In this document: positions 1,155 to 55,800 of the stretch, one piece after another
Layout: every line of letters begins with the position of its first letter
Position numbering within the stretch: position 1 is the first letter of the stretch
Origin: Candidatus Poribacteria bacterium
Lineage (GTDB): Bacteria; Poribacteria; WGA-4E; PCPOR2b
DNA: 64,000 nucleotides
Assembly (NCBI GenBank): GCA_965247655.1
Contig: OZ252032.1
Span: forward strand, 5,339,843 to 5,403,842
Reading direction: 5' to 3'
Made by a program: the position numbers and the translations under genes
The notes under the pieces: model-generated
Seen by the model: the letters and a program-made list of their open reading frames with translations, nothing else
The model's database searches: none
What the model was told of the DNA's origin: nothing

Positions 1155-1476
1155 CTATTTTCTCATTGCTTGCGCAGAAATTTAGAACTGCTGAAGGTAT
1201 CGCTTTGATAGCAGAGGTGTTCACACAGCTGCTGCTCAGGTATCTACTACATAACCTCGATTGCTTCAAACAAGCTCAGTTGAGGGATTTGAATCGTCAG
1301 CAGGTCATCTAACCAACTATGCACACATGTCTCCCCTGAGACAAGGCTTCGCACGGACTTCGGCGACTGCGCTGACGACAACTCGATCTCCAAATCTGCC
1401 ATTTTGACTGGCTCGTAAAAACTCACTCCGAAATGCCCCGAACCGTTCACCAGATGCACCAAGTGCAAAACGCAAA

Positions 1477-1512
1477 GAGCAACCGAGTTTTCAAGAAAAA
1501 ACTCGGTTGCTG
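1477..1512 (-). terminator. Hairpin (12-bp stem agcaaccgagtt/aactcggttgct) just downstream of the sulfatase stop; U-rich tract follows on the minus strand
   Basis: Perfect inverted repeat seen in sequence, located 40-75 nt after the stop of 1554..3047(-). Confidence 0.5.
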
Positions 1513-1553
1513 TTGCACGATTTCTTCACATGAACCTCTAGCTTTAGCACGCT

Positions 1554-3047
1554 TTATTTGTCTTTTCCCTCAGAGTGCCACTGTATTTGAGACATATTCG
1601 TGCGAGGCGGCGGGGGCCAATGCGAACCGCGTTGGCTGGTGAGCCCTCTGTTGGGACCGGGGATAAAGTCTCGGTCAGGCACACCGATGAGTTGCCCATT
1701 TTCAGCCCAAGCTTCGTCGCCACCATAGAGTTGACTGACGAGCAGATCAGTCAGATTGGTGAGGATGTCGGCATGTTCAGTGGAAGCGGAGAGATCTATC
1801 AATTCATCTGGATCGTTTTGTAAATCGAAAAGCTGCCGACAGTTGCCAACCGGATAATAGATGAGTTTGTAGCGTCCATCGCGGATCATGCGCGTGGCAT
1901 GGTTATCCTCGCCAACCTCACCATAGAACCAATCTCGTCTCTGCTCACCGACCATTGAAATCCCTTCAACCGTCTCAGGGATATCAATGCCCGCCAAGTC
2001 GAGCAGCGTTGGCATCACATCCGCCCAACCGACCAATCGGTCATCAACACGGTTGTAACCCACCCGCTCATCCCCAGCGACGCCGAGCAGAATCATCGGG
2101 ATGTTGGCGGAGTATTCGTAGAAGAGCCGCTTCGCCCACATACTATGGTTGCCGAGCATATCGCCGTGATCGGACGTGAAGCAGATAATGGTATTGTCGA
2201 GGATGCCTTCCTCACGCAATGTCCCGATAAGGACGCGCAGCTGATGGTCAATATGGGTGCAGAGGGCATAGAAGGCGCGACGGGCGGCAATGATCTGGTG
2301 CGGTGTGAACTTAGCCCCTCGAGCGGTGTTGGCTTTCAGGCTGAAAGGTAGGTCTTCTGAGGAGGTTGACCAGTCGCCGGAATACGGTTCATCAATCGGA
2401 ATATCGCGGTAAAGATCGAGATATGTTTGTAGGGGGACGATCGGAGGGTGGGGGTGACGGTAGGAGATAAACCAGAAAGCGGGACGATTCGGATCACGGC
2501 GTTTAACGAACCGTGCCATCTGATTCGTCGCCCAGTTGGTCGCATGGGTCTCCTCTGGAAGGTGCCATGGACGGTTGACGTATTCGTTGTTACCCATGCC
2601 GTGGTCGAAGTGTCGTCCGGCATATCCCTGATCGCCGAGAAAAAGTTCGTAATCATCTAACACCCCGTACTGGACGCGCCCTTCCTCATCCAATATCACA
2701 TCGTCGAAGCCGATGCGGTTACGCTGCGGGTAGACGTGCAGCTTTCCAACGGCATAGGCTTGATAGCCTGCGTCCCGAAAGGTTTGTGCCATAGTCGGGA
2801 CTGCGGGCATGGTCAGTTTATCTTTGAAAACCCGATCCCCGTGGGTGCGGGGTGTAGTCCCCGTCATAAGGGTCCGACGGGCGGGAATGCAGACCGGACA
2901 TTCGGTATAGGTGTTAGTAAAACGAACCCCGCTGCGGCAGAGTTCATCAAGGGTCGGGGTTTGGATGGTTGGATGTCCTGCAGCTCCGAATAGGGCAGCG
3001 GGCCAATGGTCGGTACTTATTAAAAGCACATTTGGTTGGGTAGACAT
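1554..3047 (-). CDS. Cys-type sulfatase (formylglycine-dependent arylsulfatase family)
   Basis: N-terminal LLISTDHW and sulfatase signature C-x-P-x-R (CPVCIPARRTLMTG); length 497 aa; AAGGAA RBS 8 nt upstream of ATG. Confidence 0.9.
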   Translation of the reverse strand: MSTQPNVLLISTDHWPAALFGAAGHPTIQTPTLDELCRSGVRFTNTYTECPVCIPARRTLMTGTTPRTHGDRVFKDKLTMPAVPTMAQTFRDAGYQAYAVGKLHVYPQRNRIGFDDVILDEEGRVQYGVLDDYELFLGDQGYAGRHFDHGMGNNEYVNRPWHLPEETHATNWATNQMARFVKRRDPNRPAFWFISYRHPHPPIVPLQTYLDLYRDIPIDEPYSGDWSTSSEDLPFSLKANTARGAKFTPHQIIAARRAFYALCTHIDHQLRVLIGTLREEGILDNTIICFTSDHGDMLGNHSMWAKRLFYEYSANIPMILLGVAGDERVGYNRVDDRLVGWADVMPTLLDLAGIDIPETVEGISMVGEQRRDWFYGEVGEDNHATRMIRDGRYKLIYYPVGNCRQLFDLQNDPDELIDLSASTEHADILTNLTDLLVSQLYGGDEAWAENGQLIGVPDRDFIPGPNRGLTSQRGSHWPPPPRTNMSQIQWHSEGKDK

Positions 3048-3354
3048 AAACTATTCCTTTTTTTGGTGCAAGTTTTCTATCACAGCGATAGATTTACTAT
3101 ATCCCGCCCCGGACCGCCCGTCGGAGGATTCTCTCCCGTGCGAAAGTTGCGGCTCCTTCGGCAAACTCAAGGTAGGCTTCTGGTCGGAACATAGACAACA
3201 CTGATTTGTAGGAGGGCGGGGCAAGGATCAAGGGGCTCGGAAATGCGTCACAGTCGAAACACAAGTGTGCCAAATCTTAGATGCTCTAGAGTTTGTGTCT
3301 CCGCTTTTATCTGCGTGAATCTGCGCCCCACAAAGACCAGTCGCCAGAAAAGGT

Positions 3355-8472: not shown

Positions 8473-9543
8473 TTAAGGGAGTTCAACCTCTACCCGGCGA
8501 CCCGTCTGACTGGATTCCAAAGCTGCATCAATTATGCGGGCGACTTGGAGTGCGTCCCGTCCCGAGGCAGGCGGGGTGCCTTCGCCTTGTCCTGAACGAA
8601 TAAAGTCACGGATGAACTCCTCTCCAGCAATGCCACCATACGCCGGAGATTGACCCAAGGTATAGTCAAATTCGCGCTGAGGCGCAGACGCCCAAGAACC
8701 TTGAGCTGTTTCAACACTCATATGTTCTGCAACGCCTGGGGAAGCCCAGTAAATCCGACCGTTCTGACCATTGACGCCAACATAGGTATCGTAACTGGGT
8801 TGGTTGGGATATTTTGATCCACTCAACGCAAGGGTATAGCCCGCATGTAGAGAACCAACCGCTCCCGAACGCAAACGAAAAGAGAGCGTAGCAATATCCT
8901 CCACATCAATATCCTCACCGCTGCGTGTTGCGACCTCGGCAGACACCGACACAATTTCGTCGTGGGTGATGTAGCGTAACATGTCAATATAGTGACAGCC
9001 CAACCACGCCAAGATTCCACTCCCCGCGTATTCGTGGCGAAATAGCCATCCTTGGGGGTTGCGGTATTGTACCTGTGTCGTCAGCATACGCATCTCAATC
9101 GACATCAGCGGTCCCAACAAGCCCTGTCCTATAAGATCCCGTGCTTCACGAATCATCGGATTGTACCGATTTTGATAGCAGACGCCCAACTGCATACCTG
9201 CGCGCTCCGCCGCATCAACAACTCGCTGTACATCTGGGGCGGTTCTGCCGACCGGCTTTTCTGCCATTAGGTGCTTGCCAGACTCCAATATCCGTATAAA
9301 AACATCTGGCTTCAAGTCCGTTCTCATGGTGGCAATGGCAAAGAAGACATCGTCCCGCGCTAGAATTTCATCCAAATCGGTGGTGATGCTTTCCACCTTA
9401 TGTTCCTCCGATTGTTGGATGGACTCTAGAGCAGCTTGGTCTTCTCCCCAAATAAAAATGCCTTCAACCTCCGGCAATTCCTGTAATGTGCCGAGATGTC
9501 CTTCAAAATGAGCATTTCCTGGGCTTAGCAGCAACACTTTCAT
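8473..9543 (-). CDS. Gfo/Idh/MocA family NAD(P)-dependent oxidoreductase
   Basis: N-terminal Rossmann fold MKVLLLSPGNAHF, family-typical EKP motif (LMAEKPVG); start at ATG 9543 behind GGAAAG. Confidence 0.8.
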   Translation of the reverse strand: MKVLLLSPGNAHFEGHLGTLQELPEVEGIFIWGEDQAALESIQQSEEHKVESITTDLDEILARDDVFFAIATMRTDLKPDVFIRILESGKHLMAEKPVGRTAPDVQRVVDAAERAGMQLGVCYQNRYNPMIREARDLIGQGLLGPLMSIEMRMLTTQVQYRNPQGWLFRHEYAGSGILAWLGCHYIDMLRYITHDEIVSVSAEVATRSGEDIDVEDIATLSFRLRSGAVGSLHAGYTLALSGSKYPNQPSYDTYVGVNGQNGRIYWASPGVAEHMSVETAQGSWASAPQREFDYTLGQSPAYGGIAGEEFIRDFIRSGQGEGTPPASGRDALQVARIIDAALESSQTGRRVEVELP

Positions 9544-9957
9544 TTTTTCTTTCCTTTCATTTAATAGAGTTGTTCGCAAAAATATTATCCCATAGAATAT
9601 GGCAAAGAGAATCGGTATAAGATCTGGTGGTTTCCTTATAACGCAATATTATAAATGGAATTGTAACATAATAACATCTTTTCACAAAATTGGGCAGATC
9701 AATTATTGATAAATCTTCGAGAAGCAGCATCGTACCTCCATCGAAGTTGAAAATGCGAAAAGCCGACCTCTCAACAGGTTAGGGTTATTTAGTGAGGTGT
9801 CGGGATTCGGAGATCCCTCCTACAGGAAAACTAAATGTCCCTACCAACAGGGATCCATCGTTTGACAGCCTAACGGCATTATGATATTCTTTTGTGGCAT
9901 TGAAGATGATTGGCTACAATTCGCCAAAAACAGGAAACGTCTGCTAAGAGGTGAAAC

Positions 9958-10425
9958 ATGCTTAAATTCTATATCGGCCTTGTACTTGCCCTGTTGGTAT
10001 TCGCCATATTTTTCGGCTTTGTGACATCGGCACAAAAGACGGAGGATGGAACTAAGAAGGAAGGGGTGACGTTAGAAGCACTTGGGGTGACAGCGGAACA
10101 AAAAGCACAAATCAAAGCTTTGTGGGAACTTAAACGTCAAAGGCATCGTCAAGCAATCAAAAATCTGAAGCCCCTGAATCGGCTTGCCAAAGATAAGATG
10201 GCATCAGATGACCAAGTCCGAGAGGTTTTGAAAAAATTTCGCCAGCAACACTTAGCGCGAGAACAGAAGGTTGAGATCGCTGAAGAAGATCTCATCAAAT
10301 CTCTGCCGCCACGTGCACAGCTGCATCTGACCATCTTAGGTGTGTTAGACAACGGTTTAGCTCCCCGGCGCTTCAGCACTGCTCCGAAGAGAGAAGACAA
10401 CATACCAAAACCGAGCGACAGGTAG
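9958..10425 (+). CDS. Secreted LTxxQ-motif protein (Spy/CpxP-like periplasmic protein)
   Basis: Signal peptide MLKFYIGLVLALLVFAIFFG; LGVTAEQKAQIKAL and charged helical repeats. Confidence 0.4.
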   Translation: MLKFYIGLVLALLVFAIFFGFVTSAQKTEDGTKKEGVTLEALGVTAEQKAQIKALWELKRQRHRQAIKNLKPLNRLAKDKMASDDQVREVLKKFRQQHLAREQKVEIAEEDLIKSLPPRAQLHLTILGVLDNGLAPRRFSTAPKREDNIPKPSDR

Positions 10426-10451
10426 GATAGATCTGTGGGCACAAAAGAAGG

Positions 10452-10524
10452 TGGAGCATATCGGACTTGAACCGATGACTTCTTGCATGCCATGCAAGCG
10501 CTCTCCCAACTGAGCTAATGCCCC
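10452..10524 (-). tRNA. tRNA-Ala (anticodon GGC)
   Basis: Minus-strand read GGGGCATTAGCTCAGTTGGGAGAGCGCTTGCATGGCATGCAAGAAGTCATCGGTTCAAGTCCGATATGCTCCA; G3:U70 Ala identity pair, anticodon loop ATGGCAT, T-loop GGTTCAAGTCC; CCA not encoded. Confidence 0.9.
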
Positions 10525-10594
10525 ACTTGAATATTTTTATTTTACCATATCAACCCGCGAAGCGCAAGGAAAAATCAGCCTTCTCTGAAAACCA

Positions 10595-11413
10595 TCATGA
10601 ACCTGTACTGTGATAGCACCGCAGCCCACTACACCAGAGCAGATAGCTAACACAGAGCATCACTAGTGCAACAACCGGTGCTCCAAATTGAAAGAGTTCA
10701 GGCATACCGAGAAACTCGTCTTTCTGAAGAAGCTGCTGGGCGGGATAATACGTCACAAAAGCGACGGGGAGAACAAACGTCAAAAGCAGCCGCACGGCGA
10801 GTGGATAGATGGAAATGGGAAACATTGCCGCTTCTTTGGTGGCGGTAATGAGCAGATCCGTCAATTTACCCGATTTTGTCGTCCATAGCGCGACGGTCGC
10901 ACTGATGAGCATGAGTGCGAACATAATCAGTGTGCCACTCAGAATCGTTGTGAGGGTGAACAGCGCGACGTTCAACGTCCAACGAATCTCGGTCAAGTGG
11001 AACGCAACAACGAAGATAACAACACTTGTCAATGCCCGCGAAACATGAATTAATTCTATACGGCTTGCAAGAATGTAGAATAGTGGTGGCACAGGTCTAA
11101 TCAGTACACCGTCCAACTCGCCGCGGATGATATATCGGTCAAAATCGTCCAACTGGCTCCCCAATATCCGCATGAATGAGTACGCCAAGTTCCCTAAGCC
11201 GTACAGGAATACCACTTCTGCCCACGTCCAGCCATTAACGGTGCGAAACTTGGCGAGCAGCGCGCCCAATAAACCGAGCAAGCAGACTTCGCTGATAACA
11301 ATGCCGAAGCACATAAAACCAAACGAGAGCCGGTATTGAAGCCGGGAACGCATATACGCGCCAGCGAGAAGAAAGTAGAGTTTGAAGTAGCGTCGCACAA
11401 TCGATCCTTCCAT
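10595..11413 (-). CDS. ABC-2 family transporter permease
   Basis: Six predicted TM helices; operon with ABC ATPase; AAGGAAG RBS. Confidence 0.65.
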   Translation of the reverse strand: MEGSIVRRYFKLYFLLAGAYMRSRLQYRLSFGFMCFGIVISEVCLLGLLGALLAKFRTVNGWTWAEVVFLYGLGNLAYSFMRILGSQLDDFDRYIIRGELDGVLIRPVPPLFYILASRIELIHVSRALTSVVIFVVAFHLTEIRWTLNVALFTLTTILSGTLIMFALMLISATVALWTTKSGKLTDLLITATKEAAMFPISIYPLAVRLLLTFVLPVAFVTYYPAQQLLQKDEFLGMPELFQFGAPVVALVMLCVSYLLWCSGLRCYHSTGS

Positions 11414-11472
11414 ACTTCCTTAAGATGTAGGGAACGCAGATCTGCGTTCCCTACGATTCCAATGTGCTCGCT

Positions 11473-12270
11473 CTATCCGCCCTGAATCACCAATTTACGG
11501 AAAGCCGCTCGGTATGCCAACCGTCCAACCCCGACCAACATAACCACCCAAGTCAATTGTATCAACAGTGCCGTAACGAGGTTCTCTCCTATTAATTGAC
11601 CGGTGTAAATGGCAGTTGGAAAATAGATAATAGCACGAAACGGCAAGACCGCCGCAACTTTGGCTAAAAAAGCAGGATAAAACTCCAAAGGCAAAAAGTA
11701 GCCGGAAAACAACATAGCCAGCCCCCATATAACAAAGGCGTAAATACCGCGGATCTCGACAAGCCAGAAGGCAAAGATACCGATTATAAATTCTATACTG
11801 AACAGAATGACATACCCTAAAACCACGCTAATGAGAAAGAGAAAAACAGTCAAAAGCGATGGCGGTAGCGATAGCCCAAACACACCGTAAAACAGCAAGA
11901 ATTTTGGGAGCATATTGAATAGCACCGTATGGCTTGAAGTTCCCGCAGCTGTCGCAAACGTCATCAATTGGAAATCAATTGGTTTCATTAAATCGGTGAC
12001 TACCTCGCCCGTGCGTACCTTCTCTTCGATAATACGCGCCACCCGGAGTGTGAATGTGAAGGTCAACAAGGTTTGTGAGACGACGATGTACGTCAGAATC
12101 CTGTTCAGGTCGTATCCTTCTACCGATGTCCGCCCTGTGTATAACGCCTTCCACAGATAGACATAGATCAGCATGAACAGCACGTTGATAAACAGTTCCA
12201 TCCACAACTCGAACCGATATGTCAGCGTCCGTTGAAAGGCTTTCGTCGTAAAAGTGAGATATTTTTTCAT
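11473..12270 (-). CDS. ABC-2 family transporter permease
   Basis: Polytopic membrane protein immediately downstream of the ABC ATPase. Confidence 0.65.
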   Translation of the reverse strand: MKKYLTFTTKAFQRTLTYRFELWMELFINVLFMLIYVYLWKALYTGRTSVEGYDLNRILTYIVVSQTLLTFTFTLRVARIIEEKVRTGEVVTDLMKPIDFQLMTFATAAGTSSHTVLFNMLPKFLLFYGVFGLSLPPSLLTVFLFLISVVLGYVILFSIEFIIGIFAFWLVEIRGIYAFVIWGLAMLFSGYFLPLEFYPAFLAKVAAVLPFRAIIYFPTAIYTGQLIGENLVTALLIQLTWVVMLVGVGRLAYRAAFRKLVIQGG

Positions 12271-12290
12271 TATGATACGATCGCCGGGTA

Positions 12291-13274
12291 TTAGTGCATG
12301 CCTAACTCATAGATGCGTCGGACAATCTCCTCAATCTCCGGTTCCGATATCGTTAAATCCTGAATCTCATAGCGCGCCGTCAACTGCGCGATGACTTCGG
12401 AGGCTGAAATGGTATCGCGGTCAAATGCGAGCCAGATACGATTTCCGTCGTGCCGGGTCAGATCTACCTCCTCAAGTTGAATATCGGAATACGCTTGTGC
12501 GAGGTCAACGACGAGCATCCGGGTTTTGCCGTAACGCTTTTTCAAGGCATCAATCCCACCGTCATAGATGATTTTGCCGCTGTCAATGATAACCAATCGC
12601 TGGCAAACCTTCTCGACATCGTTGAGGTCATGCGTCGTCAGAATAACCGTGACTTGGCGTTCCGCGTTGACTTGCCTCAGAAACTGACGCACCTGCTCTT
12701 TGGCAACCACATCCAAGCCGATCGTCGGCTCATCTAAGTATAAGATCTCCGGATTATGTAGCAGTGCTGCCGTCAGATCGCACCGCATCCGTTGTCCGAG
12801 ACTTAATCTTCGCACCGGCGTGGACAGAAATGGCTGCAATCGCAACAGTTCGCTGAAAAATTCGAGGTTCTGTTTGTACAGATTCTGCGGGATTTCGTAG
12901 ATATGCTTGAGCAGTTCAAAGGAGTCGATAACGGGTAGATCCCACCAGAGTTGGGTTCGTTGTCCAAACACCACGCCGATCCGGCGAGTATTTTCCTTCC
13001 GGTGGCGATATGGCGTCAATCCCATCACGTCAATATGTCCCGACGTTGGCACAAGGATCCCTGTCAGCATCTTGATGGTTGTCGATTTTCCCGCTCCGTT
13101 GGCTCCGATATATCCGACCAATTCCCCACGATCAAGGGTGAAATTCACATCATCAACCGCTTTGATAATATCGTGCTGGCGTGAGACCGTGCTACTAAGA
13201 TTTCCCCAGAACCCGGTGCGGCGTTTATGGACTTTGAAATGTTTGCTGAGGTGTTCGACTGTGATAATTGGCAT
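12291..13274 (-). CDS. ABC transporter ATP-binding protein
   Basis: Walker A GANGAGKST, signature LSLGQRMR, Walker B ILYLDEPT. Confidence 0.9.
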   Translation of the reverse strand: MPIITVEHLSKHFKVHKRRTGFWGNLSSTVSRQHDIIKAVDDVNFTLDRGELVGYIGANGAGKSTTIKMLTGILVPTSGHIDVMGLTPYRHRKENTRRIGVVFGQRTQLWWDLPVIDSFELLKHIYEIPQNLYKQNLEFFSELLRLQPFLSTPVRRLSLGQRMRCDLTAALLHNPEILYLDEPTIGLDVVAKEQVRQFLRQVNAERQVTVILTTHDLNDVEKVCQRLVIIDSGKIIYDGGIDALKKRYGKTRMLVVDLAQAYSDIQLEEVDLTRHDGNRIWLAFDRDTISASEVIAQLTARYEIQDLTISEPEIEEIVRRIYELGMH

Positions 13275-13400
13275 TTTTTTTAGCGTCAGGTTATCAGGAG
13301 GTTGATTTGAAAAAAAACAGAATTATTTGCATCAAGAGGGGGTTACATTATACCATATTTAATCTATGCCTTCTTCTTAGATGAGTTAGGAAGTAGAACT

Positions 13401-13719
13401 ATGACTATTATCAACCCCAAAATGACTGAAACGTTCATAAAAGTTGGTGGACTCCGGCTATGGACAATCGTGCAAGGGAGAGGTGTTCCAGTGGTTCTGT
13501 GCAGCGGCGGTCCCGGTTGCTGCGACTATCTCAGTCCGATTGCTGGAATGCTCGATGATCTGTGCCAAGTGATGCGATTCGATCACCGCGGTTGCGGTCG
13601 CTCCGACGAAACTGAATCCTATACGGTGGAAACGTGCATTGAGGATTTGGAGGGGATTCGTCAACACTACGGCATCGAGCGTTGGCTTATATTTGGGCAT
13701 TCATTCGGAGCAGACTTAG
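13401..13719 (+). pseudogene. Alpha/beta hydrolase (proline iminopeptidase-like), 5' part, interrupted by IS insertion
   Basis: Nucleophile elbow GHSFGAD at the break; reading frame continues in 14606..15040 after the IS. Confidence 0.8.
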
Positions 13720-14605
13720 AACCTGTTTTAAAAGTCATTTGATGCGGTTCCGCATCAAGTAAATGGAAGCAATATACACCATAGCCTCAGCGGTCTCAGC
13801 CGAGCGTTCATAGTCCAAAGTCAATCGGCGAAACCAACCGAACCAAGAAAAGGTGCGCTCCACAATCCAACGTAATGGGACGACCACAAATCCCGATTGC
13901 CCAAGAGATGGAGCAATGTCCAATTGACACTGATGCGTTAAATATAGCCAGTCGCCTAATTCTCCGCGATAGCCAGCATCAGCACAGACTAACTGAATCG
14001 TTATCTGCCAACTAAAGACCTCGTTTAGTAACTCTATTGCGACTCGATTATCACTGACATTGGCATCAGTGACTTTGACTCCCAATGGAATGCCAATTGT
14101 ATCGGTGACTATATGGCGTTTACGACCTTTGACTTTCTTGTGCCCATTAAACCCTCTACTATCTGCCAGTTCGGTCGTCTTGACCGATTGGCTGTCAATG
14201 ATAGCTACGGTCGGTGACGGGGATTTGCCAATATCACTACGGGTTTGCTCGTGAAGTGCTTGATGAATCATAACCCATGTCCCTAAAGTTTTCCACTTTC
14301 TGAAGTGGGAATAGACCGTTTGCCACGGTGGCATGTGACGCGGCAACATTCGCCACTGACACCCTGATTTGACTATATAGAAAATAGCGTTGATAATTGA
14401 GCGCATCTCCCACTTGAGAGGTCTACCTATGGGTGAAGGTTCTGGCAAATAGGGTAACAGTTTGTCCCACTGGGCATCGGTCAAATCTGTAGGATACTTT
14501 GGTGTAGTCATGTTTAGGCCTTTCATTAGGTCAGTAGTTTACTGCTCTAATGGTTTAACATAAACATTAACTTTTGAATAGCCTTTTTCTTTTTAAAACA
14601 GGTTC
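13720..14605 (-). mobile_element. IS5-family insertion sequence (IS427-like group, about 886 bp)
   Basis: Perfect 16-bp terminal inverted repeats (GAACCTGTTTTAAAAG at 13719-13734, CTTTTAAAACAGGTTC at 14589-14605), 4-bp target duplication TTAG (13716-13719 and 14606-14609; fits IS5 YTAR target), single DDE transposase ORF. Confidence 0.85.
13735..14526 (-). CDS. IS5-family DDE transposase
   Basis: N-terminal LPxxPPWQTVYSHFRKW motif (DUF4096-like) and DDE_Tnp_1-like C-terminus. Confidence 0.85.
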   Translation of the reverse strand: MKGLNMTTPKYPTDLTDAQWDKLLPYLPEPSPIGRPLKWEMRSIINAIFYIVKSGCQWRMLPRHMPPWQTVYSHFRKWKTLGTWVMIHQALHEQTRSDIGKSPSPTVAIIDSQSVKTTELADSRGFNGHKKVKGRKRHIVTDTIGIPLGVKVTDANVSDNRVAIELLNEVFSWQITIQLVCADAGYRGELGDWLYLTHQCQLDIAPSLGQSGFVVVPLRWIVERTFSWFGWFRRLTLDYERSAETAEAMVYIASIYLMRNRIK

Positions 14606-15040
14606 TTAGCGTTAGCTTATTCCCTGCGTTATGGTAAGCATGTACAAGGATTTGTTTGTCTATCGGGGGGCAGGATTCACAATGACCGTGACTGGCACCG
14701 GGTCTATAGCCAGCGACGCGATCAGGGGCTTGAAACACCACCAGAGCAAGACTATCCAGCAAATATGGAAGTCAACAGGCAAGTCAATAAATCATGGAAA
14801 CAGTTTATCAAGCGTCCATCACTACTTGCGGAATTGTCAAAATTGAAGATACCGGGTATTTTCATATATGGCGCACAAGATATCAGACCGAGTTGGCCCG
14901 TGGAACAAGTTGCTCAATTGATACCCAATGCAGAAATGGAAATCTTCGAGAGTGCGAATCACCAGATTTGGCTTGGGCATGAGGAATTGTTGCGAAGCTG
15001 TTTGAGAGAATTTGTACTCAAGCATATCCAAAGTAGATGA
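14606..15040 (+). pseudogene. Alpha/beta hydrolase, 3' part (continues 13401..13719)
   Basis: In-frame continuation LALAYSLRYGKHVQGFVCLSGG...ANHQIWLGHEELL (catalytic His region). Confidence 0.8.
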
Positions 15041-15138
15041 CAGTAGCATTTGCAGGCAGATCTTCCATTTTTACCAACCGAAACCTTGGCAAAGTACGTA
15101 ATCCTTTTCACCCTTCTGTTAAGAACTTGAGGTAACCA

Positions 15139-15543
15139 ATGCAAGATTACGACTATAGTCTTACATGGTATCACGGCTCTCAGCAAGAGCTGACCACACT
15201 TGGGGTCGGAAGTTCAATTACACAGAACAGAAATGTAGCAAAAGCGTTCTCTCACAGACCGTCCCTGCTCACCCTGTCTAAGGGCGGTACGGTGAAGCAC
15301 GATGGCGTGACACCCGGTTATCTCTATACCGTTGCCGATGAGATTGGTCCCAATGATGTGTATCCACATCCCCATCCGGCGAATGTCACTCGCTGGGAGT
15401 GGCTGACCAACCGAGAATTGAAACTGGAATTAATCGAACAGACTATCGTGACGGACAAGGAACGTCTGACAGACCAAGAAATTGCAGAGATAAAGCGGAA
15501 ACAGGAGGAAAGGGGCGAGCAGACTTTCACGGAGTGTGTTTGA
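15139..15543 (+). CDS. Hypothetical protein
   Basis: ORF with TGAGGT RBS; no family recognised. Confidence 0.45.
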   Translation: MQDYDYSLTWYHGSQQELTTLGVGSSITQNRNVAKAFSHRPSLLTLSKGGTVKHDGVTPGYLYTVADEIGPNDVYPHPHPANVTRWEWLTNRELKLELIEQTIVTDKERLTDQEIAEIKRKQEERGEQTFTECV

Positions 15544-15657
15544 TCTGAGTTGCTACCTATTCCAGAGAAACCAATTTTTGCAGATATTAAACAAGTCGGG
15601 TGTGTTTGCGCTCAAGCATAAATGCTTGGGATTCCATACCTAAAGGTTAATCATTGA

Positions 15658-16563
15658 ATGACTAACGCCGAAAACCACCCTATTATTGTGCTTGGTGTAG
15701 AGCGCAGTGGAACCTCTGTCGTTGCTGAGATGGTGCACAGATGGGGTGCGTATGCCGGAGTGCCTGAAATGTTGCATGAAGCGGATGCACATGCGCCCAG
15801 AGGGTATTGGGAATTTCTACCGTTATGGGATTTGTTGGCAGAGTTAGGCGATTTCGCTTCCGGGGCAACTTGGTGGGATCATGACTTCCAACAGCGAATC
15901 GAAGACAAAGCCGCTGACCCCGTGTATAGGACCAAAGCCACCAAATTGATGTCTCAAATGCACAAAGGTGGTCCTTGGTTTTGGAAGGATCCGGCACTCA
16001 GCCATTTTTTGCCGTTTTGGAAACAGATATGGGGCGATGCGATTTATATAATTACAGTTCGCAACCCCCTCGACACCGCAGTGTCGTGGCAGAAGTTCAT
16101 TATGCCATCCAATGTGAAAGTCTGTATTTCGTTTGTCGCAATGAATTTGCTGCGTTGGCAGCACATGATGACGCTGATACTACAGCACACGGAAGATGCA
16201 CAGCACCGACTCTTCCTTGGCTACGAAGATATTATACGTAAACCTCGTGTGCAGGCTGAGAGGCTAGCTGGGTTCCTGAATTTGAAGTTTGAGAACCGAA
16301 TCCCACCGATTCAGGCGATGGTTGAGGCGGTTGATCCCCAGCTATGGCGAAACGATTGCCGGATGCCGTTTGACCAAGTGCCGGAGGCAACAGAGAGCCA
16401 GAAGGCACTCTATTCCTTTGCAAGACAGAAGATCAAAAATCCATTGGAACCGTTCGACATTACAAAGTATCCACTGCCACCCGGATACCTTGAGTTCCTA
16501 AACATTCAAGAGGCTTTACTGAAAGCCTGTCGAGAACTTGAAACACCTCTGATAGAAAGTTGA
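15658..16563 (+). CDS. Sulfotransferase-family protein
   Basis: 5'-PSB-like IIVLGVERSGTS and 3'-PB-like RNPLDTAVS motifs. Confidence 0.55.
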   Translation: MTNAENHPIIVLGVERSGTSVVAEMVHRWGAYAGVPEMLHEADAHAPRGYWEFLPLWDLLAELGDFASGATWWDHDFQQRIEDKAADPVYRTKATKLMSQMHKGGPWFWKDPALSHFLPFWKQIWGDAIYIITVRNPLDTAVSWQKFIMPSNVKVCISFVAMNLLRWQHMMTLILQHTEDAQHRLFLGYEDIIRKPRVQAERLAGFLNLKFENRIPPIQAMVEAVDPQLWRNDCRMPFDQVPEATESQKALYSFARQKIKNPLEPFDITKYPLPPGYLEFLNIQEALLKACRELETPLIES

Positions 16564-17534
16564 TGAAAACACCGGTTGAGGTGCTATTCACGAGCAATAG
16601 CCCTCTATGGGATCGGATAGATAAAAATCTAACAGGAGTAGAGATGGAAATTGTCCAGTATACACCCAAGCTGCAAAGCGTTTTGACGGCATTCTATAAC
16701 CGTCAGACCGTCAATGTTCCACATTGCTACCCGGTCACGGAAGAGGAGTTCGCCCTTGCGATGTGCGGAGTTAATGGTAAACCGGATATACAGGAGACTG
16801 GACTCGATTTTGAGACAGCCTTCGTTGGGATAGAGAACCGTGCTGTACAGGCGTTTATTCACATAGGTATCGGTCAGGTTGGAGATAACAGGGGCGTTAT
16901 TCGGTTTTTGGGGTACGAGCGCGGTGCCCGGCGTGCCGGGCAAGCCGTGCTTGAAAAAGCGGAAGCCTATCTGGAAGCGTGTAACGTCGCCCACATTGAT
17001 GCCTTTTCACAAGACTCTCGATATCGTTTCTATCATTTTGAAAACGCTGGCTTATCGGACGGATTTGACCATGTTCAAGCACTCCTTGGATTCAACGGCT
17101 ATCAATGCTGTTCAGGGGAGGTTTTTTTAGATTGGGAGAACTATTCTGTCACACCAATACCTTCAAGTGCGCCGGTAACGTTTTCTATCGACTGGGAACA
17201 GGGGAGGGGGCAACGTCCCAATTGTACTGTACGTGCCTACCTAGATGGTGAAGAAGTTGGAGAATGTGAGTCTGTCTCCGGCGGCGAGTTTTCAAGCCAC
17301 CCCGATGCACAAGACTGGCTTCATACTATTGGGCTCGATATCGAAGACCCGTATCAAGGGCAAGGTATTGGGCGTTACCTGCTCCAACGCTCGCTTCAAG
17401 AGATGCGTAAAGTCGGGTATCGCCACGCAACGATTAGCACTGACTGGGAGAACTACCGTGCATTTCTGTTTTACAGCAACTGTGGCTATCGCGTCGTGGA
17501 TTGGACTTACGAATTAGAGAAACATTTCGATTAG
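16560..17534 (+). CDS. GNAT-family N-acetyltransferase (C-terminal GNAT, N-terminal uncharacterised domain)
   Basis: C-terminal QGQGIGRYLLQRSLQEMRKVGYRHATIST GNAT core. Confidence 0.6.
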   Translation: MMKTPVEVLFTSNSPLWDRIDKNLTGVEMEIVQYTPKLQSVLTAFYNRQTVNVPHCYPVTEEEFALAMCGVNGKPDIQETGLDFETAFVGIENRAVQAFIHIGIGQVGDNRGVIRFLGYERGARRAGQAVLEKAEAYLEACNVAHIDAFSQDSRYRFYHFENAGLSDGFDHVQALLGFNGYQCCSGEVFLDWENYSVTPIPSSAPVTFSIDWEQGRGQRPNCTVRAYLDGEEVGECESVSGGEFSSHPDAQDWLHTIGLDIEDPYQGQGIGRYLLQRSLQEMRKVGYRHATISTDWENYRAFLFYSNCGYRVVDWTYELEKHFD

Positions 17535-17648
17535 ACAGTCAGAGTAGAAACGCTAGTTGTAACAGGGATGTCCTCGCAAAGCCTGAAGTAATGTTCTTGA
17601 ACAAACTACTATAAGCAAGGCGGAATCCTAAAGGTGAAAGGTATTACC

Positions 17649-18533
17649 ATGGATGAAACAACTGAGATTGGAGCAGAGAACGTATACGATTTTCTTAAAC
17701 AGTTCGCTACAGATATCTCCCTAGCAGATCTGAAACCTGTATCCCATCGTCACCGGGGCGGTGATAGCCTGACCTTCTACTACCGTGACGACAGTATCCT
17801 CAAGGTTCCCCGCCTTAATGATTACCGCCCAGGACTCCTCAAAGAAATTAAACTCACAGAATACCTGCACACACAGTCACTACCCTTCGTTGTGGCAAAA
17901 CCGATCCTAGCGCATGAAGAGGGATTCTATGCGATGTTTTCAAGGATTGATGGTGCTTCGCTTCCGATAGAAGCACTTGAAGAACTTACCCCCGAAGAGT
18001 TGGAATCCTTTGGCAGATCTATCGGCACTTCCCTCTCTTTCTTGCACAATCACAAATTTCCGATCGAGGTCTTGGACTACATCCCACGCGCGGATGATCC
18101 CTTTGAAGTGGCACTTCGTGAGGCAAGGGGGCAGCTCGCTTTTATTGAGAAACACACTGTAGAAGTAGATACAACTCAATGGACTGAAAAGCTAGAAAGC
18201 CTGCGGGAATCCTTAAATCAGCGGTGGGCTGTGGTTCACTGCGATCTCCAAATAAACCACCTACTTTTTGTCCAAGGAAATCTGGAACAACTCGCCGTTA
18301 TCGATTTCGCGGATACGCTGATGCACGATCCCGCCGTAGATCTATCCGAGTTTGCCATAGAAATGTATTCAGATTTATCCCCTGACGGTATTGCAGCCAA
18401 AAAGATTATCAATGCGGTTCTAAAGCATTATCAAACAGACGATTCTGAGATTGAAGCGAAAATCGAGTTTGGACTTCTCCTTTTTGCAATTAGGTGCGCC
18501 TACCAAGAGGCAGTGAAACTTATCCGCTCATGA
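17649..18533 (+). CDS. Aminoglycoside/choline-kinase-type phosphotransferase (APH family)
   Basis: Catalytic loop VVHCDLQINHLLF and IDFADT motif; start at ATG 17649 behind AAAGGTGAAAGG (track start 17634 is GTG). Confidence 0.75.
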   Translation: MDETTEIGAENVYDFLKQFATDISLADLKPVSHRHRGGDSLTFYYRDDSILKVPRLNDYRPGLLKEIKLTEYLHTQSLPFVVAKPILAHEEGFYAMFSRIDGASLPIEALEELTPEELESFGRSIGTSLSFLHNHKFPIEVLDYIPRADDPFEVALREARGQLAFIEKHTVEVDTTQWTEKLESLRESLNQRWAVVHCDLQINHLLFVQGNLEQLAVIDFADTLMHDPAVDLSEFAIEMYSDLSPDGIAAKKIINAVLKHYQTDDSEIEAKIEFGLLLFAIRCAYQEAVKLIRS

Positions 18534-18675
18534 ACTTTCCCGTTGCCATTTCTCCGAAGATGGTATAATTAGACTTGGATGTTTTCAGGGTTATGGTCCT
18601 TTTGAGGTTGTCAAGTCACCATAGTCAATGAAGCTGCTATATTTATACTTTTCTCTGATACAGAAAGGAAATTCT

Positions 18676-54289: not shown

Positions 54290-54480
54290 AACGACGCTGT
54301 ACACCCCGATAGAATCAGGAGATTTCGCTGCGCTCAACACGATACAAAAGGAGGGATTGTCAACTACCCCGCCCTGAAGGACGGGGCCCCCGACAAGTCG
54401 GGATACAAGCACTTGTGATACCGTCCACGGGGGCTTACAGGTTTCGCGCTTCCTTCTCTTTCGAGGGTTTCAGAGCCGTT
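54290..54480 (-). ncRNA. Candidate omega-RNA (reRNA) locus overlapping the tnpB 3' end and right end
   Basis: Position rule for IS200/IS605 TnpB guide RNAs; the segment is conserved in the tnpB-less copy at 51552 and begins next to an 8-bp hairpin (54284-54314). Confidence 0.25.
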
Positions 54481-55800
54481 AGTTACCGGCGTCCCTCCAC
54501 GCAGGGCAGCAGCTGCCCGATTACCAATGTTGATTGCTGCGTTGTGGTCACGGTCAATTATCAACCCACAATCGGGGCAGTAATGGACACGGACAGACAA
54601 CGACTTCTTTACAACCGAACCACACCCTGAGCATTCCTGAGACGTGCCTTGAGGCTTAACTTGCAACAGATGCTTACCAGCTTTTGCAGCTTTGCTTTGC
54701 AGTGTTAAGCGAAAATTACCCCATGCAGCATCAGATATGCTTTTAGAAAGATAGTGGTTTTGAACCATGTTAGTGATTTTCAAGACCTCAACAGCTACCG
54801 CGTCACACTGGGTAAAAAGTTGGTGTGCGGTCTTGTAGTGGAAGTCACGGCGTTGGTTGACAATATGCTCGTGTATCTTGGCAACCCGTTCCCGTTGGTT
54901 ACTATAGCGTCTGCTCCCCTTCTGCCTTTTGGATAACCGACCTTGTGCTTGGCTCAACTTGTGTTCTGATTGACGAAAGTGGCGAGGATTGGCAACCTTA
55001 TCCCCATTGGAAGTGGTTAGAAACGATGCCAAACCGACGTCAATCCCTGTAATCGTTTGGATAGATGCTTCGGGAATCTCAGGTACATCAGGGAGCTGGA
55101 CAGTAATATTTGCATACCAGCCACTGGCTTTCCGTTGTATGGTCAGATTCTTAATTTTGCCATTGGGAAGCGCGCGGTGATAACAAATGGCAACATGCCC
55201 AATCTTGGGCACAACTATCCGAGCCATCCGTTTACGGATATTGCGAATCAACCGTTTAGATAGGTGGCTAAAGGTCATTGAGCGGTATCGGCCTTCACCT
55301 TTGAAGCGTGGGAACCCGGGTGCTTCACCTTTTTCGACACGGACAAAGAACGCTTGATAGGCTTTGTCCAAACGGCGTAAAGTGTCCTGCAAAACATCAC
55401 AGTGCTTGGTTTGCCAGAATTGAGAGACATTGCGAAGTGTGGTCAAATAGGCAGCTTGCGTTCTGTAAGTGATATTTTCCTTGTGCTTGTCGTAGGCTTG
55501 CTTTTTCATATCAAGTGCTTGGTTATAAAGCGTACGACACGCATCAAGCCAAACTTCAAGTGCCTTGCGTTGTTTCATCGTCGGATAAATGCGATATTGA
55601 TATGTTGTTTTCATGGGATTCGGTTTTCTGGATTTCAATCCGGTACTAACGGAGGTGGGAAGCAGCCCGATGGGATCGGGACGTAGTACCTTCCCACGAA
55701 AGCCAACTATAGTATACCATAAAGCCTTTAACAATACATGGAAAAGGAGCGCAGTTTCCTCCCCTCCCTAAAGGGAAGGGATCTCCACTGCGAAGATTTG
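54306..55800 (-). mobile_element. IS200/IS605-family element carrying only tnpB (IS1341-like), about 1.5 kb
   Basis: TnpB ORF flanked by end segments that recur elsewhere in the window (54306-54339 = 56921-56955; 55741-55798 = 51826-51877); no tnpA. Confidence 0.65.
54364..55614 (-). CDS. tnpB: TnpB (OrfB) RNA-guided endonuclease-like transposon protein
   Basis: N-terminal MKTTYQYRIYPT, RuvC-like ITGIDVGL, AVAVEVLK and DRDHNAAINI, zinc finger CSGCG...CPDCG; start at ATG 55614. Confidence 0.85.
   Translation of the reverse strand: MKTTYQYRIYPTMKQRKALEVWLDACRTLYNQALDMKKQAYDKHKENITYRTQAAYLTTLRNVSQFWQTKHCDVLQDTLRRLDKAYQAFFVRVEKGEAPGFPRFKGEGRYRSMTFSHLSKRLIRNIRKRMARIVVPKIGHVAICYHRALPNGKIKNLTIQRKASGWYANITVQLPDVPEIPEASIQTITGIDVGLASFLTTSNGDKVANPRHFRQSEHKLSQAQGRLSKRQKGSRRYSNQRERVAKIHEHIVNQRRDFHYKTAHQLFTQCDAVAVEVLKITNMVQNHYLSKSISDAAWGNFRLTLQSKAAKAGKHLLQVKPQGTSQECSGCGSVVKKSLSVRVHYCPDCGLIIDRDHNAAINIGNRAAAALRGGTPVTNGSETLEREGSAKPVSPRGRYHKCLYPDLSGAPSFRAG

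What the first reader, a model, noticed from the sequence alone, without database searches (positions are those of the whole stretch)
13401..15040. IS5-family insertion splitting an alpha/beta hydrolase gene, with precise junctions
The hydrolase frame breaks after GHSFGAD (the nucleophile elbow) and resumes as LALAYSLRYGKHVQGFVCLSGG after an 886-bp element. The element has perfect 16-bp inverted repeats and a TTAG target duplication. This fits the YTAR target preference of IS5-group elements. The clean junction and perfect repeats indicate a recent insertion event.
Basis: seen in the sequence. Interest (0 to 1): 0.5.

Follow-up and report, generated by a model that had tools for sequence, protein, structure and literature searches.

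The report
IS1031-type insertion splitting a hydrolase gene

Summary
An 887-bp insertion sequence (window 13719-14605) sits inside a 249-codon alpha/beta-hydrolase gene. Removing 890 bp (IS plus one duplicate) restores one open frame, 84-98% identical to intact 249-aa orthologues. Four related contigs carry the same locus with the site unoccupied.

The junction details need correcting. 65 independent copies in Candidatus Poribacteria genomes all start GAACCTGTTT and end AACAGG(T/C)TC. They are flanked by a 3-bp TNA duplication (60 of 65 matched) in a Y-TNA-R context. Here the duplication is TTA inside CTTAG, the perfect inverted repeat is 15 bp and the element is 887 bp.

These are the published features of the IS1031 subgroup (TNA, 3-bp repeat, terminus GAACCTGT as in ISLrh), not the 4-bp YTAR rule of IS5 proper. 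The transposase (263 aa; inferred D111/D183/E223) is intact.

The insertion postdates the split from relatives that lack it. All 21 window-specific substitutions in the gene cluster within 257 bp around the IS and are mostly synonymous, so the IS-bearing allele may have arrived by homologous recombination.

This is a new member of a known kind, of low general interest.

The parts
13401..13718 (+). 5' part of the alpha/beta-hydrolase gene: codons 1-106, including the nucleophile elbow GHSFG (Ser101) and the left TTA (Leu106)
   Evidence: ORF list and translation. Pfam Abhydrolase_1 73.3 bits on the restored protein. Ser101 aligns with the GSSYG serine (position 105 by my count) of proline iminopeptidase 1xrm_A.
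13716..13718 (.). Left copy of the 3-bp target-site duplication, TTA, within CTTAG (13715-13719)
   Evidence: Sequence. The TNA duplication rule comes from 60 of 65 other copies.
13719..14605 (-). Insertion sequence of 887 bp, IS5 family, IS1031-like; the transposase is read on the minus strand
   Evidence: Full-length blastn matches 1-887 to copies in Poribacteria genomes at 87-96% identity. Ends fixed by 65 copies. Net 890-bp insertion relative to L001, L083 and L084.
13719..13733 (+). Terminal inverted repeat next to the transposase stop codon, GAACCTGTTTTAAAA (15 bp)
13739..13758 (-). Hairpin of 8 pairs overlapping the transposase stop codon, just inside the terminal repeat. It is terminator-like, but the scan as a whole was not above chance.
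   Evidence: 3 terminator-like sites found against 2.1 expected. The adjacent end sequence AAATGACTTTTAAAACAGG is conserved in the other copies.
13735..14526 (-). Transposase gene, 263 aa, single ORF. It has an N-terminal DUF4096 domain (residues 15-88) and a DDE_Tnp_1 domain (104-258). Inferred catalytic residues are D111, D183 and E223.
   Evidence: The residue assignment is by motif position (AIID, CADAGY, VERTF) and is an inference.
14591..14605 (-). Terminal inverted repeat upstream of the transposase start codon, GAACCTGTTTTAAAA on the minus strand
14606..14608 (.). Right copy of the target-site duplication, TTA
14609..15040 (+). 3' part of the hydrolase gene: codons 107-249 plus the stop codon, carrying Asp197 and His224. 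No start codon of its own opens this frame at the junction.
   Evidence: Asp197 and His224 align with an Asp and a His of 1xrm_A, positions 244 and 271 by my count.
13618..14764 (+). Divergent tract around the IS, gene nucleotides 218-474: 101 bp to the left and 155 bp to the right of the insertion point. It holds all 21 substitutions unique to the window.

Best explanation
An 887-bp insertion sequence of the IS5 family, IS1031-like subgroup, inserted into a CTTAG site in codon 106 of a 249-codon alpha/beta-hydrolase gene. The gene belongs to the S33 proline-iminopeptidase-like clade. The host genome is related to Candidatus Poribacteria, which are sponge symbionts.

The single DDE transposase (263 aa) would bind the 15-bp terminal repeats and join the ends to staggered cuts 3 bp apart around T-N-A. 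Repair of that stagger duplicated TTA.

The insertion separates the Ser101 nucleophile (N-terminal fragment of 106 residues plus 7 IS-encoded residues) from Asp197 and His224, so the enzyme is inactivated.

Shown here:
- the element, its ends and its duplication;
- the restored ORF;
- the unoccupied sites in relatives;
- the multi-copy family and its target rule.

Inferred:
- the chemistry of transposition;
- the catalytic residues;
- loss of enzyme activity;
- whether the insertion arose in this lineage or was imported with about 100-155 bp of flanking DNA by homologous recombination.
For: - **Excision test.** Removing 890 bp restores one 249-aa ORF.
- **Homologues.** The restored protein is 84% identical over its full length to P0001 (also 249 aa). 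The junction motif GADLALAYS is conserved across the homologues.
- **Unoccupied sites.** L083 and L084 carry an intact 249-aa gene with 4-5 amino-acid differences. L002 reads GACTTAGCGTTAGC, the same 14 bases as the restored window sequence across the junction. L001 is collinear, with a net 890-bp gap.
- **Transposase.** NCBIfam transpos_IS5_3 222.8 bits (cut-off 110); Pfam DUF4096 97.2 bits and DDE_Tnp_1 92.2 bits.
- **Multi-copy family.** 185 relatives were found in Poribacteria genomes and 80 loci fetched. In 65 copies with both ends, the element is 884-888 bp with a conserved GAACCTGTTT terminus. The 3-bp duplications are TAA 33, TTA 24, TGA 2 and TCA 1, with 5 unmatched. The base before is C in 39 and T in 17 of 60; the base after is G in 34 and A in 20 of 60.
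- **Recent activity.** 62 of 65 copies keep an intact ORF. 22 copies are identical in one genome and 14 in another.
- **Literature.** The IS1031 group prefers TNA and makes a 3-bp direct repeat. ISLrh, a member of that group, has repeats starting GAACCTGT (PMC12016507).
Against: - Subgroup placement was not tested by phylogeny against reference IS1031, IS427 and ISL2 transposases.
- The closest plasmid-borne transposases are 47% identical or less.
- No other copy lies in the 64-kb window, and the window's own genome is not in the searchable collections. Copy number and activity in this genome are therefore unknown.
- The divergent 257-bp tract around the IS means a simple in-situ transposition history is not the only reading.
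- All comparison sequences are metagenome assemblies, which can be strain mosaics.
Confidence: 0.93

Rival explanations
1. One reading: an IS5-group element of 886 bp with 16-bp inverted repeats that duplicated a 4-bp YTAR target (TTAG).
For: TTAG does occur on both sides, at 13716-13719 and 14606-14609. AGAACCTGTTTTAAAA can be read as a 16-bp inverted match if it is allowed to overlap that duplication.
Against: With a 4-bp duplication the element ends are AACCTG... and ...CAGGTTC, one base out of register. In 65 other copies the conserved element always begins with G of GAACC. Only the three bases T-N-A are repeated. The fourth base is G in 34 and A in 20 of 60, and it matches the element's own first base G, so it is not duplicated sequence. 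The size (887 bp) and the 263-aa transposase are below the 1.0-1.5 kb that I recall for IS5 proper; that range was not checked against a source here.
Confidence: 0.03
2. The IS-bearing allele was not made by transposition in this lineage. It was imported from a diverged co-resident strain by homologous recombination, with the IS carried between about 100 bp and 155 bp of donor flank.
For: All 21 window-unique substitutions in the 750-bp gene lie in nucleotides 218-474, bracketing the insertion point at 319/320. Outside that tract the gene is identical to L083, with 0 differences in 493 nt. Under a uniform spread, clustering this tight has P of about 7e-9. Of the 22 differences from L083, 17 are synonymous. 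The outgroup L002 agrees with the window at 9 sites and with the relatives at 11, so this is an old functional allele, not decay after insertion. L083, L084 and L001 read CTTGG at the site, which has no TNA. The tract itself supplies the TTA.
Against: Short divergent tracts are common around this locus, for example 15863-16160 and the whole region left of 13074. The IS lying inside one could be coincidence: about 9% within the otherwise identical 2.8-kb block, and 20-40% on a looser count. No donor contig with the same insertion was found. Metagenome assemblies can create mosaics. The tract could have been imported first and the IS could have inserted afterwards.
Confidence: 0.35
3. The IS is ancestral at this site, and the relatives lost it by precise excision.
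For: None directly. Precise excision between short direct repeats does occur at low frequency; this is general knowledge, not tested here.
Against: Four separate relatives lack the IS, including the outgroup-like L002 at 87% nucleotide identity. Three of them read TTG rather than TTA at the site. Both gene halves in the window are free of any secondary damage. Within the divergent tract around the IS, 17 of the 22 differences from L083 are synonymous. These points argue against long residence as a pseudogene.
Confidence: 0.02
4. Assembly artefact: a repeat-induced misjoin placed an IS copy inside an intact gene.
For: This IS is highly repeated in related genomes and sits at contig ends in the short-read assembly PYIZ01.
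Against: The element is complete. It is flanked by a matched TTA duplication in the preferred CTTAG context. The two gene halves abut exactly once one repeat copy is removed. A misjoin would not create a target duplication.
Confidence: 0.02

Closest known systems
IS1031 subgroup of the IS5 family (e.g. IS1031 of Komagataeibacter xylinus, ISLrh of Lacticaseibacillus rhamnosus)
   Same: Length of about 0.86-0.9 kb. Preference for 5'-TNA-3' with a 3-bp direct repeat. The terminal repeat begins GAACCTGT, identical to the first 8 nt of the ISLrh repeat (PMC12016507). The DDE transposase is about 260 aa. [quoted passage not shown] Like IS1031, which is linked to loss of cellulose production (PMC6559022), it causes gene inactivation.
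   Different: The repeat is 15 bp here against 17 bp in ISLrh, and the sequences diverge after 8 nt. ISLrh needs a -1 frameshift between two ORFs; this element has one ORF. The host is an uncultured sponge-symbiont phylum. Transposase identity to any named IS was not measured; the best plasmid-borne relatives are 47% or less.
IS5 proper (IS5 subgroup)
   Same: It belongs to the same family by transposase homology (NCBIfam IS5 models). The target is partly palindromic with a central TA-type core, and CTTAG happens to contain a YTAR-like TTAG.
   Different: From my own knowledge, IS5 proper is about 1.2 kb and duplicates 4 bp. This element duplicates 3 bp and is 887 bp.
Eukaryotic PIF/Harbinger transposons
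   Same: They are phylogenetically linked to the IS5 family, and canonical members make 3-bp duplications (PMC12730594).
   Different: They are eukaryotic, much larger, and usually need a second Myb-like protein (own knowledge). This is a resemblance only, not membership.
Proline iminopeptidase / tricorn-interacting factor F1 (PDB 1xrm, 1mtz), MEROPS S33-type alpha/beta hydrolases
   Same: The best solved relative has E = 4e-18. The GxSxG elbow and the Asp and His positions align. JGI names the homologues 'proline iminopeptidase'.
   Different: The protein is 249 aa against 293 aa. It scores 94.9 bits on TIGR01250, below the 167.65 cut-off, so the substrate is unknown. It carries a conserved GGPGCCDY motif.

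Membership tests
IS5 family insertion sequence | DDE transposase homologous to IS5-family transposases | tested here: met
   NCBIfam NF033580 transpos_IS5_3 222.8 bits against a cut-off of 110, covering model positions 1-257 of 258. Pfam DDE_Tnp_1 92.2 bits and DUF4096 97.2 bits.
IS5 family insertion sequence | Terminal inverted repeats bounding the element, and a target-site duplication | tested here: met
   15/15 perfect repeats at 13719-13733 and 14591-14605. TTA is duplicated. The same architecture is seen in 65 copies elsewhere.
IS5 family insertion sequence | Mobility: multiple copies at unrelated sites, and unoccupied sites in relatives | tested here: met
   185 relatives were found in Poribacteria genomes, and each of the 65 analysed copies has its own distinct flanks. 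The site is unoccupied in L001, L002, L083 and L084.
IS1031 subgroup | 3-bp direct repeat at a 5'-TNA-3' target | tested here: met
   60 of 65 copies have matched 3-bp flanks, and all of those are T-N-A. The window copy has TTA. The rule is as stated in PMC12016507.
IS1031 subgroup | Length of about 850-1050 bp with termini beginning GA | tested here: met
   887 bp with terminus GAACCTGT, identical to the first 8 nt of the ISLrh repeat. The size range quoted is from my own knowledge of ISfinder tables.
IS1031 subgroup | Transposase clusters phylogenetically with IS1031-group reference transposases rather than IS427 or ISL2 | not tested
   No ISfinder reference sequences were available. IS427 and ISL2 members can also give 2-4 bp or 2-3 bp duplications (own knowledge), so the assignment stays 'IS1031-like'.
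IS5 subgroup proper | 4-bp duplication of a YTAR target; element of 1.0-1.5 kb | tested here: not met
   The duplication is 3 bp and the element is 887 bp.
Alpha/beta-hydrolase fold, serine hydrolase | Pfam alpha/beta-hydrolase domain above the gathering score, with a GxSxG nucleophile elbow | tested here: met
   Abhydrolase_1 73.3 bits (cut-off 25.8). G99-H-S101-F-G103 is nearly invariant among homologues.
Alpha/beta-hydrolase fold, serine hydrolase | Ser-Asp-His catalytic triad | tested here: met
   S101, D197 and H224 align with a Ser, an Asp and a His of 1xrm_A, positions 105, 244 and 271 by my count in the printed alignment. That these are the catalytic residues of that enzyme is from my own knowledge. 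D197 and H224 are invariant in alignment A1.
Proline iminopeptidase (TIGR01250 / TIGR01249) | Score above the curated family cut-off | tested here: not met
   94.9 bits against 167.65, and 71.4 bits against 259.75. The protein is related but cannot be assigned to this family.

The most novel reading that the evidence does not exclude
The same dispensable hydrolase gene is being lost independently in closely related sponge-symbiont strains: by IS insertion in the window, and by two nonsense mutations in L001. In addition, the IS-disrupted allele in the window was acquired by homologous recombination of a short tract of about 1.15 kb (IS plus 100-155 bp flanks) from a diverged strain. That would mean IS insertions, and the gene losses they cause, spread horizontally between co-resident symbiont lineages instead of arising only by transposition.
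Probability: 0.3. Interest if true: 0.3.

Novelty: new member of a known kind. Interest (0 to 1): 0.15.

Why it matters
In itself it matters little: one more IS insertion that knocks out a non-essential hydrolase gene.

It is useful for annotation. The two hydrolase fragments should be called one pseudogene, and the IS should be described as an unnamed IS1031-like element with a 15-bp repeat and a TNA duplication.

It also marks a heavily expanded and apparently active IS family in Candidatus Poribacteria: dozens of copies per genome, and 22 and 14 identical copies in two genomes. This fits the picture of IS proliferation and gene decay in host-associated bacteria.

The 60-site target logo (Y-TNA-R) is a clean description of target choice for this element. 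The recombination-tract observation offers a small, testable case of an IS-bearing allele moving between strains.

Tried and rejected
- **Exact-product look-ups.** I looked up the transposase (263-aa and 258-aa starts), the N-terminal hydrolase fragment and the neighbouring ABC ATPase to find the window's own genome or a second contig with the same insertion. None is on record.
- **JGI metagenome scan.** I scanned for the left-junction sequence, with degeneracy to catch both occupied and unoccupied alleles. There were 0 hits, so polymorphism of the insertion within a population could not be assessed.
- **Plasmid collection.** The IS DNA gave only about 110-bp matches at 74-75% identity to other IS5-family genes. 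The protein search gave hits of 47% identity or less. No close named relative was found.
- **Promoter and terminator scan, 13200-15700.** Counts were no higher than in shuffled sequence. No claim is made about outward promoters or polarity.
- **The 1.1-kb segment at 17545-18661**, missing from L001 and L002. I considered a second IS, but it encodes an APH-family kinase, has no terminal repeats, and is present in L083 and L084.
- **The divergent tract as decay after insertion.** I rejected this because 17 of 22 differences are synonymous and 9 of 21 agree with the outgroup.
- **Other junction readings.** A CTTAG 5-bp duplication or a 1-bp duplication was rejected by the multi-copy flanks.

Full report
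**1. What is in the sequence**

On the + strand an ORF starts at ATG 13401. It reads a typical alpha/beta-hydrolase N-terminus up to GHSFGADL, then continues as EPVLKVI and stops at 13742.

A 263-codon ORF lies on the minus strand at 13735-14526.

From 14606 the original + strand frame reads LALAYSLRYGKHVQGFVCLSGG... and runs to the stop codon at 15040.

The get_sequence ruler labels the first base of each line. CTTAG therefore occupies 13715-13719 and 14605-14609.

**2.

Deleting 13720-14609 (890 bp) gives one ORF of 249 codons with only the terminal stop. The same length deleted in any register between 13716 and 13720 gives the same result. Deleting 889 bp gives eight stops.

The restored protein matches Pfam Abhydrolase_1 (73.3 bits), Hydrolase_4 and Abhydrolase_6.

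A database search found 380 homologues. The best, P0001, is also 249 aa and 84% identical over the full length.

In the alignment the junction residues G-A-D-L-A-L-A-Y are conserved, with no gap at the join.

The closest solved structure is the archaeal proline iminopeptidase / tricorn-interacting factor F1 (1xrm_A, E = 4e-18). Ser101, Asp197 and His224 of the restored protein align with its Ser105, Asp244 and His271, positions I counted from the printed alignment. That these are the catalytic residues of F1 is from my own knowledge.

The protein is below the curated cut-offs of the proline-iminopeptidase NCBIfam models: 94.9 bits against 167.65. I therefore call it an S33-like alpha/beta hydrolase of unknown substrate.

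The insertion separates the nucleophile from the acid and the base of the triad. Loss of activity follows by inference.

**3. The element**

- The minus-strand ORF scores 222.8 bits on NCBIfam transpos_IS5_3 (cut-off 110).
- It carries Pfam DUF4096 (residues 15-88) and DDE_Tnp_1 (residues 104-258).
- By motif position the catalytic residues are D111 (AIID), D183 (CADAGY) and E223 (VERTF). This is an inference.
- GAACCTGTTTTAAAA occurs exactly twice in the 64-kb window, inverted, at 13719-13733 and 14591-14605. About 0.25 matches are expected by chance even with two mismatches allowed.
- Beyond 15 bp the two arms no longer match.

**4. Where the ends really are**

The local sequence is ambiguous because the target CTTAG is partly palindromic and extends the apparent repeat. 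I resolved this with other copies.

A scan of one genome per species found 185 relatives of the transposase. Every one of the 80 best loci fetched comes from a Candidatus Poribacteria assembly.

Full-length DNA matches, positions 1-887 of the window element, range from 87% to 96% identity.

In the 65 copies with both ends present:

| Feature | Result |
|---|---|
| Start of element | GAACCTGTTT |
| End of element | AACAGG(T/C)TC |
| Length | 884-888 bp |
| Matched 3-bp flanks | 60 of 65 |
| Duplicated triplets | TAA 33, TTA 24, TGA 2, TCA 1 |

- T and A are invariant in the 60 matched sites.
- The base before the triplet is C (39) or T (17).
- The base after it is G (34) or A (20).

For the window this gives an element of 13719-14605 (887 bp), a perfect inverted repeat of 15 bp, and a TTA duplication at 13716-13718 and 14606-14608.

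**5. Which kind of IS**

A published description of ISLrh states that the IS1031 subgroup of the IS5 family prefers 5'-TNA-3' and makes a 3-bp direct repeat. It gives the ISLrh terminal repeat as GAACCTGTCTAGTATCT (PMC12016507). The first eight bases are identical to the terminus here.

[quoted passage not shown] An IS1031-group element in another symbiont is 893 bp with a 264-aa transposase (PMC3196728).

All features I could test therefore fit IS1031-like, and the 4-bp, 1.0-1.5-kb IS5 subgroup is excluded.

I did not have reference transposases for a phylogeny, so IS427 or ISL2 affinity is not formally excluded.

The nearest plasmid-borne transposases are 47% identical or less. The element is a distinct, apparently unnamed IS.

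**6. Unoccupied sites and polarity of the event**

Four syntenic loci lack the IS.

- **L001** (ENA ERZ25074053) aligns with window 8716-13717 at 97.8% and with 14613-17544 at 95.9%. About 5 bp in L001 stand in place of about 895 bp in the window.
- **L083 and L084** (ENA ERZ26167216, contigs of 2.7 and 1.6 Mb) carry an intact 249-aa gene with 4-5 amino-acid differences. Their flanks align directly across the site.
- **L002** (87% nucleotide identity in the gene) has an intact gene. It reads GACTTAGCGTTAGC at the site, the same 14 bases as the restored window sequence across the junction.

The IS is therefore a derived insertion, not an ancestral feature lost elsewhere.

**7. How recent**

The following fit an insertion younger than the split from the L083-type strains:

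- the transposase ORF, both repeats and the duplication are intact;
- neither gene half has a frameshift or stop codon;
- the element family is clearly active in relatives: 22 identical copies in CBDCUX010000005.1, 14 identical copies in OZ244950.1, and 62 of 65 ORFs intact.

I could not examine other copies in the window's own genome, because that genome is not in the searchable collections.

**8. An unexpected detail: a divergent tract around the IS**

Compared with L083, the restored gene has 22 differences. All lie in nucleotides 218-474. The remaining 493 nucleotides are identical.

Twenty-one of these differences are unique to the window relative to L083, L084 and L001. The tract brackets the insertion point, with 101 bp on the left and 155 bp on the right. 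Under a uniform spread, clustering this tight has P of about 7e-9.

Seventeen of the 22 differences are synonymous. The outgroup L002 agrees with the window at 9 sites and with the other strains at 11.

The tract is therefore an old allele that diverged under purifying selection. It is not decay after the insertion.

The three close relatives read CTTGG at the site, so the TNA target exists only in the tract's allele.

The simplest reading is that a short recombination tract from a diverged strain carried the IS in.

Against that, short divergent tracts are common in this region. The chance that the IS merely lies within one is not negligible: about 9% within the otherwise identical 2.8-kb block, and more on looser counts. 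The tract could also have been imported before the IS landed. Metagenome assemblies can also be mosaics.

I rate this reading at about one in three.

**9. Independent decay of the same gene**

In L001 the orthologue has no IS but carries two in-frame stop codons, E81 to TAG and W95 to TGA. The gene caller accordingly split it into 80-aa and 144-aa products.

Together with the IS hit in the window, this suggests the gene is dispensable in this group of symbionts. Sequencing error in L001 cannot be excluded.

**10. Verdict**

It is an IS5-family insertion sequence that cleanly interrupts an alpha/beta-hydrolase gene.

Four corrections apply:

| Item | Reader | Corrected |
|---|---|---|
| Target duplication | TTAG, 4 bp | TTA, 3 bp |
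| Inverted repeat | 16 bp | 15 bp |
| Element length | 886 bp | 887 bp |
| Target rule | YTAR of IS5 proper | TNA of the IS1031 subgroup |

It is a new member of a well-known kind, in a phylum whose genomes are full of it. General interest is low.

Noticed in passing
window 54364-55734 (- strand): A 456-aa ORF with Pfam OrfB_IS605, Cas12f1-like TNB and HTH_OrfB_IS605 domains. This is a TnpB-type protein, so a second, unrelated mobile element (IS200/IS605 or IS1341-like) lies in the window. The Rfam gathering scan found no RNA family next to it.
   Followed up: no
L001 4686-5435 (orthologue of the window hydrolase): The orthologous hydrolase gene has no IS but carries two in-frame stop codons (E81 to TAG, W95 to TGA). 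The same gene therefore appears inactivated independently in a close relative.
   Followed up: partly
window 13618-13718 and 14609-14764: All 21 window-unique substitutions in the hydrolase gene cluster in a 257-bp tract bracketing the IS. They are mostly synonymous, and about half agree with the outgroup. This looks like an imported recombination tract carrying the IS.
   Followed up: partly
window 17545-18661: A 1.1-kb segment encoding a 299-aa APH-family phosphotransferase lies between the GNAT acetyltransferase and the MR_MLE enolase-superfamily gene. It is absent from L001 and L002 but present in L083 and L084. It has no terminal repeats and is not an IS.
   Followed up: partly
L046 and L050 (about 1423-3198), L047 (2309-2876), L060 (about 2305-2330): In L046 and L050 a complete copy of the IS sits inside another copy at a CTTAG at about IS position 320, with TTA duplicated. 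In L047 a partial copy (IS positions 320-887) directly follows a complete one. In L060 two related elements lie head to tail, separated only by a shared TTA.
   Followed up: partly
L003-L016 (OZ244950.1) and L040-L061 (CBDCUX010000005.1): There are 14 and 22 sequence-identical full-length copies in two Poribacteria chromosomes, which indicates recent bursts of transposition. In the short-read assembly PYIZ01 the IS sits at many contig ends.
   Followed up: partly
window 8716-17545 compared with L001, L083 and L084: Identity to each relative switches in blocks of a few hundred bp to several kb. For example, L083 shows 5-17 mismatches per 100 bp left of about 13074 and is identical from 14765 to 15860. 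L001 shows the opposite pattern. This points to extensive recombination among co-occurring strains, or to mosaic assemblies.
   Followed up: partly
window 13739-13758: An 8-pair hairpin (TTGATGCGGAACCGCATCAA) overlaps the transposase stop codon just inside the terminal repeat. It might be a terminator or a transposase-binding feature. The scan overall was not above chance.
   Followed up: no
restored hydrolase residues 36-43 (window about 13506-13529): A GGPGCCDY motif with two adjacent cysteines is nearly invariant across homologues. A source names only two of these: one from Competibacteraceae (in the alignment) and others in the hit list from Acidobacteriota. I do not know this motif from characterised proline iminopeptidases.
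   Followed up: no
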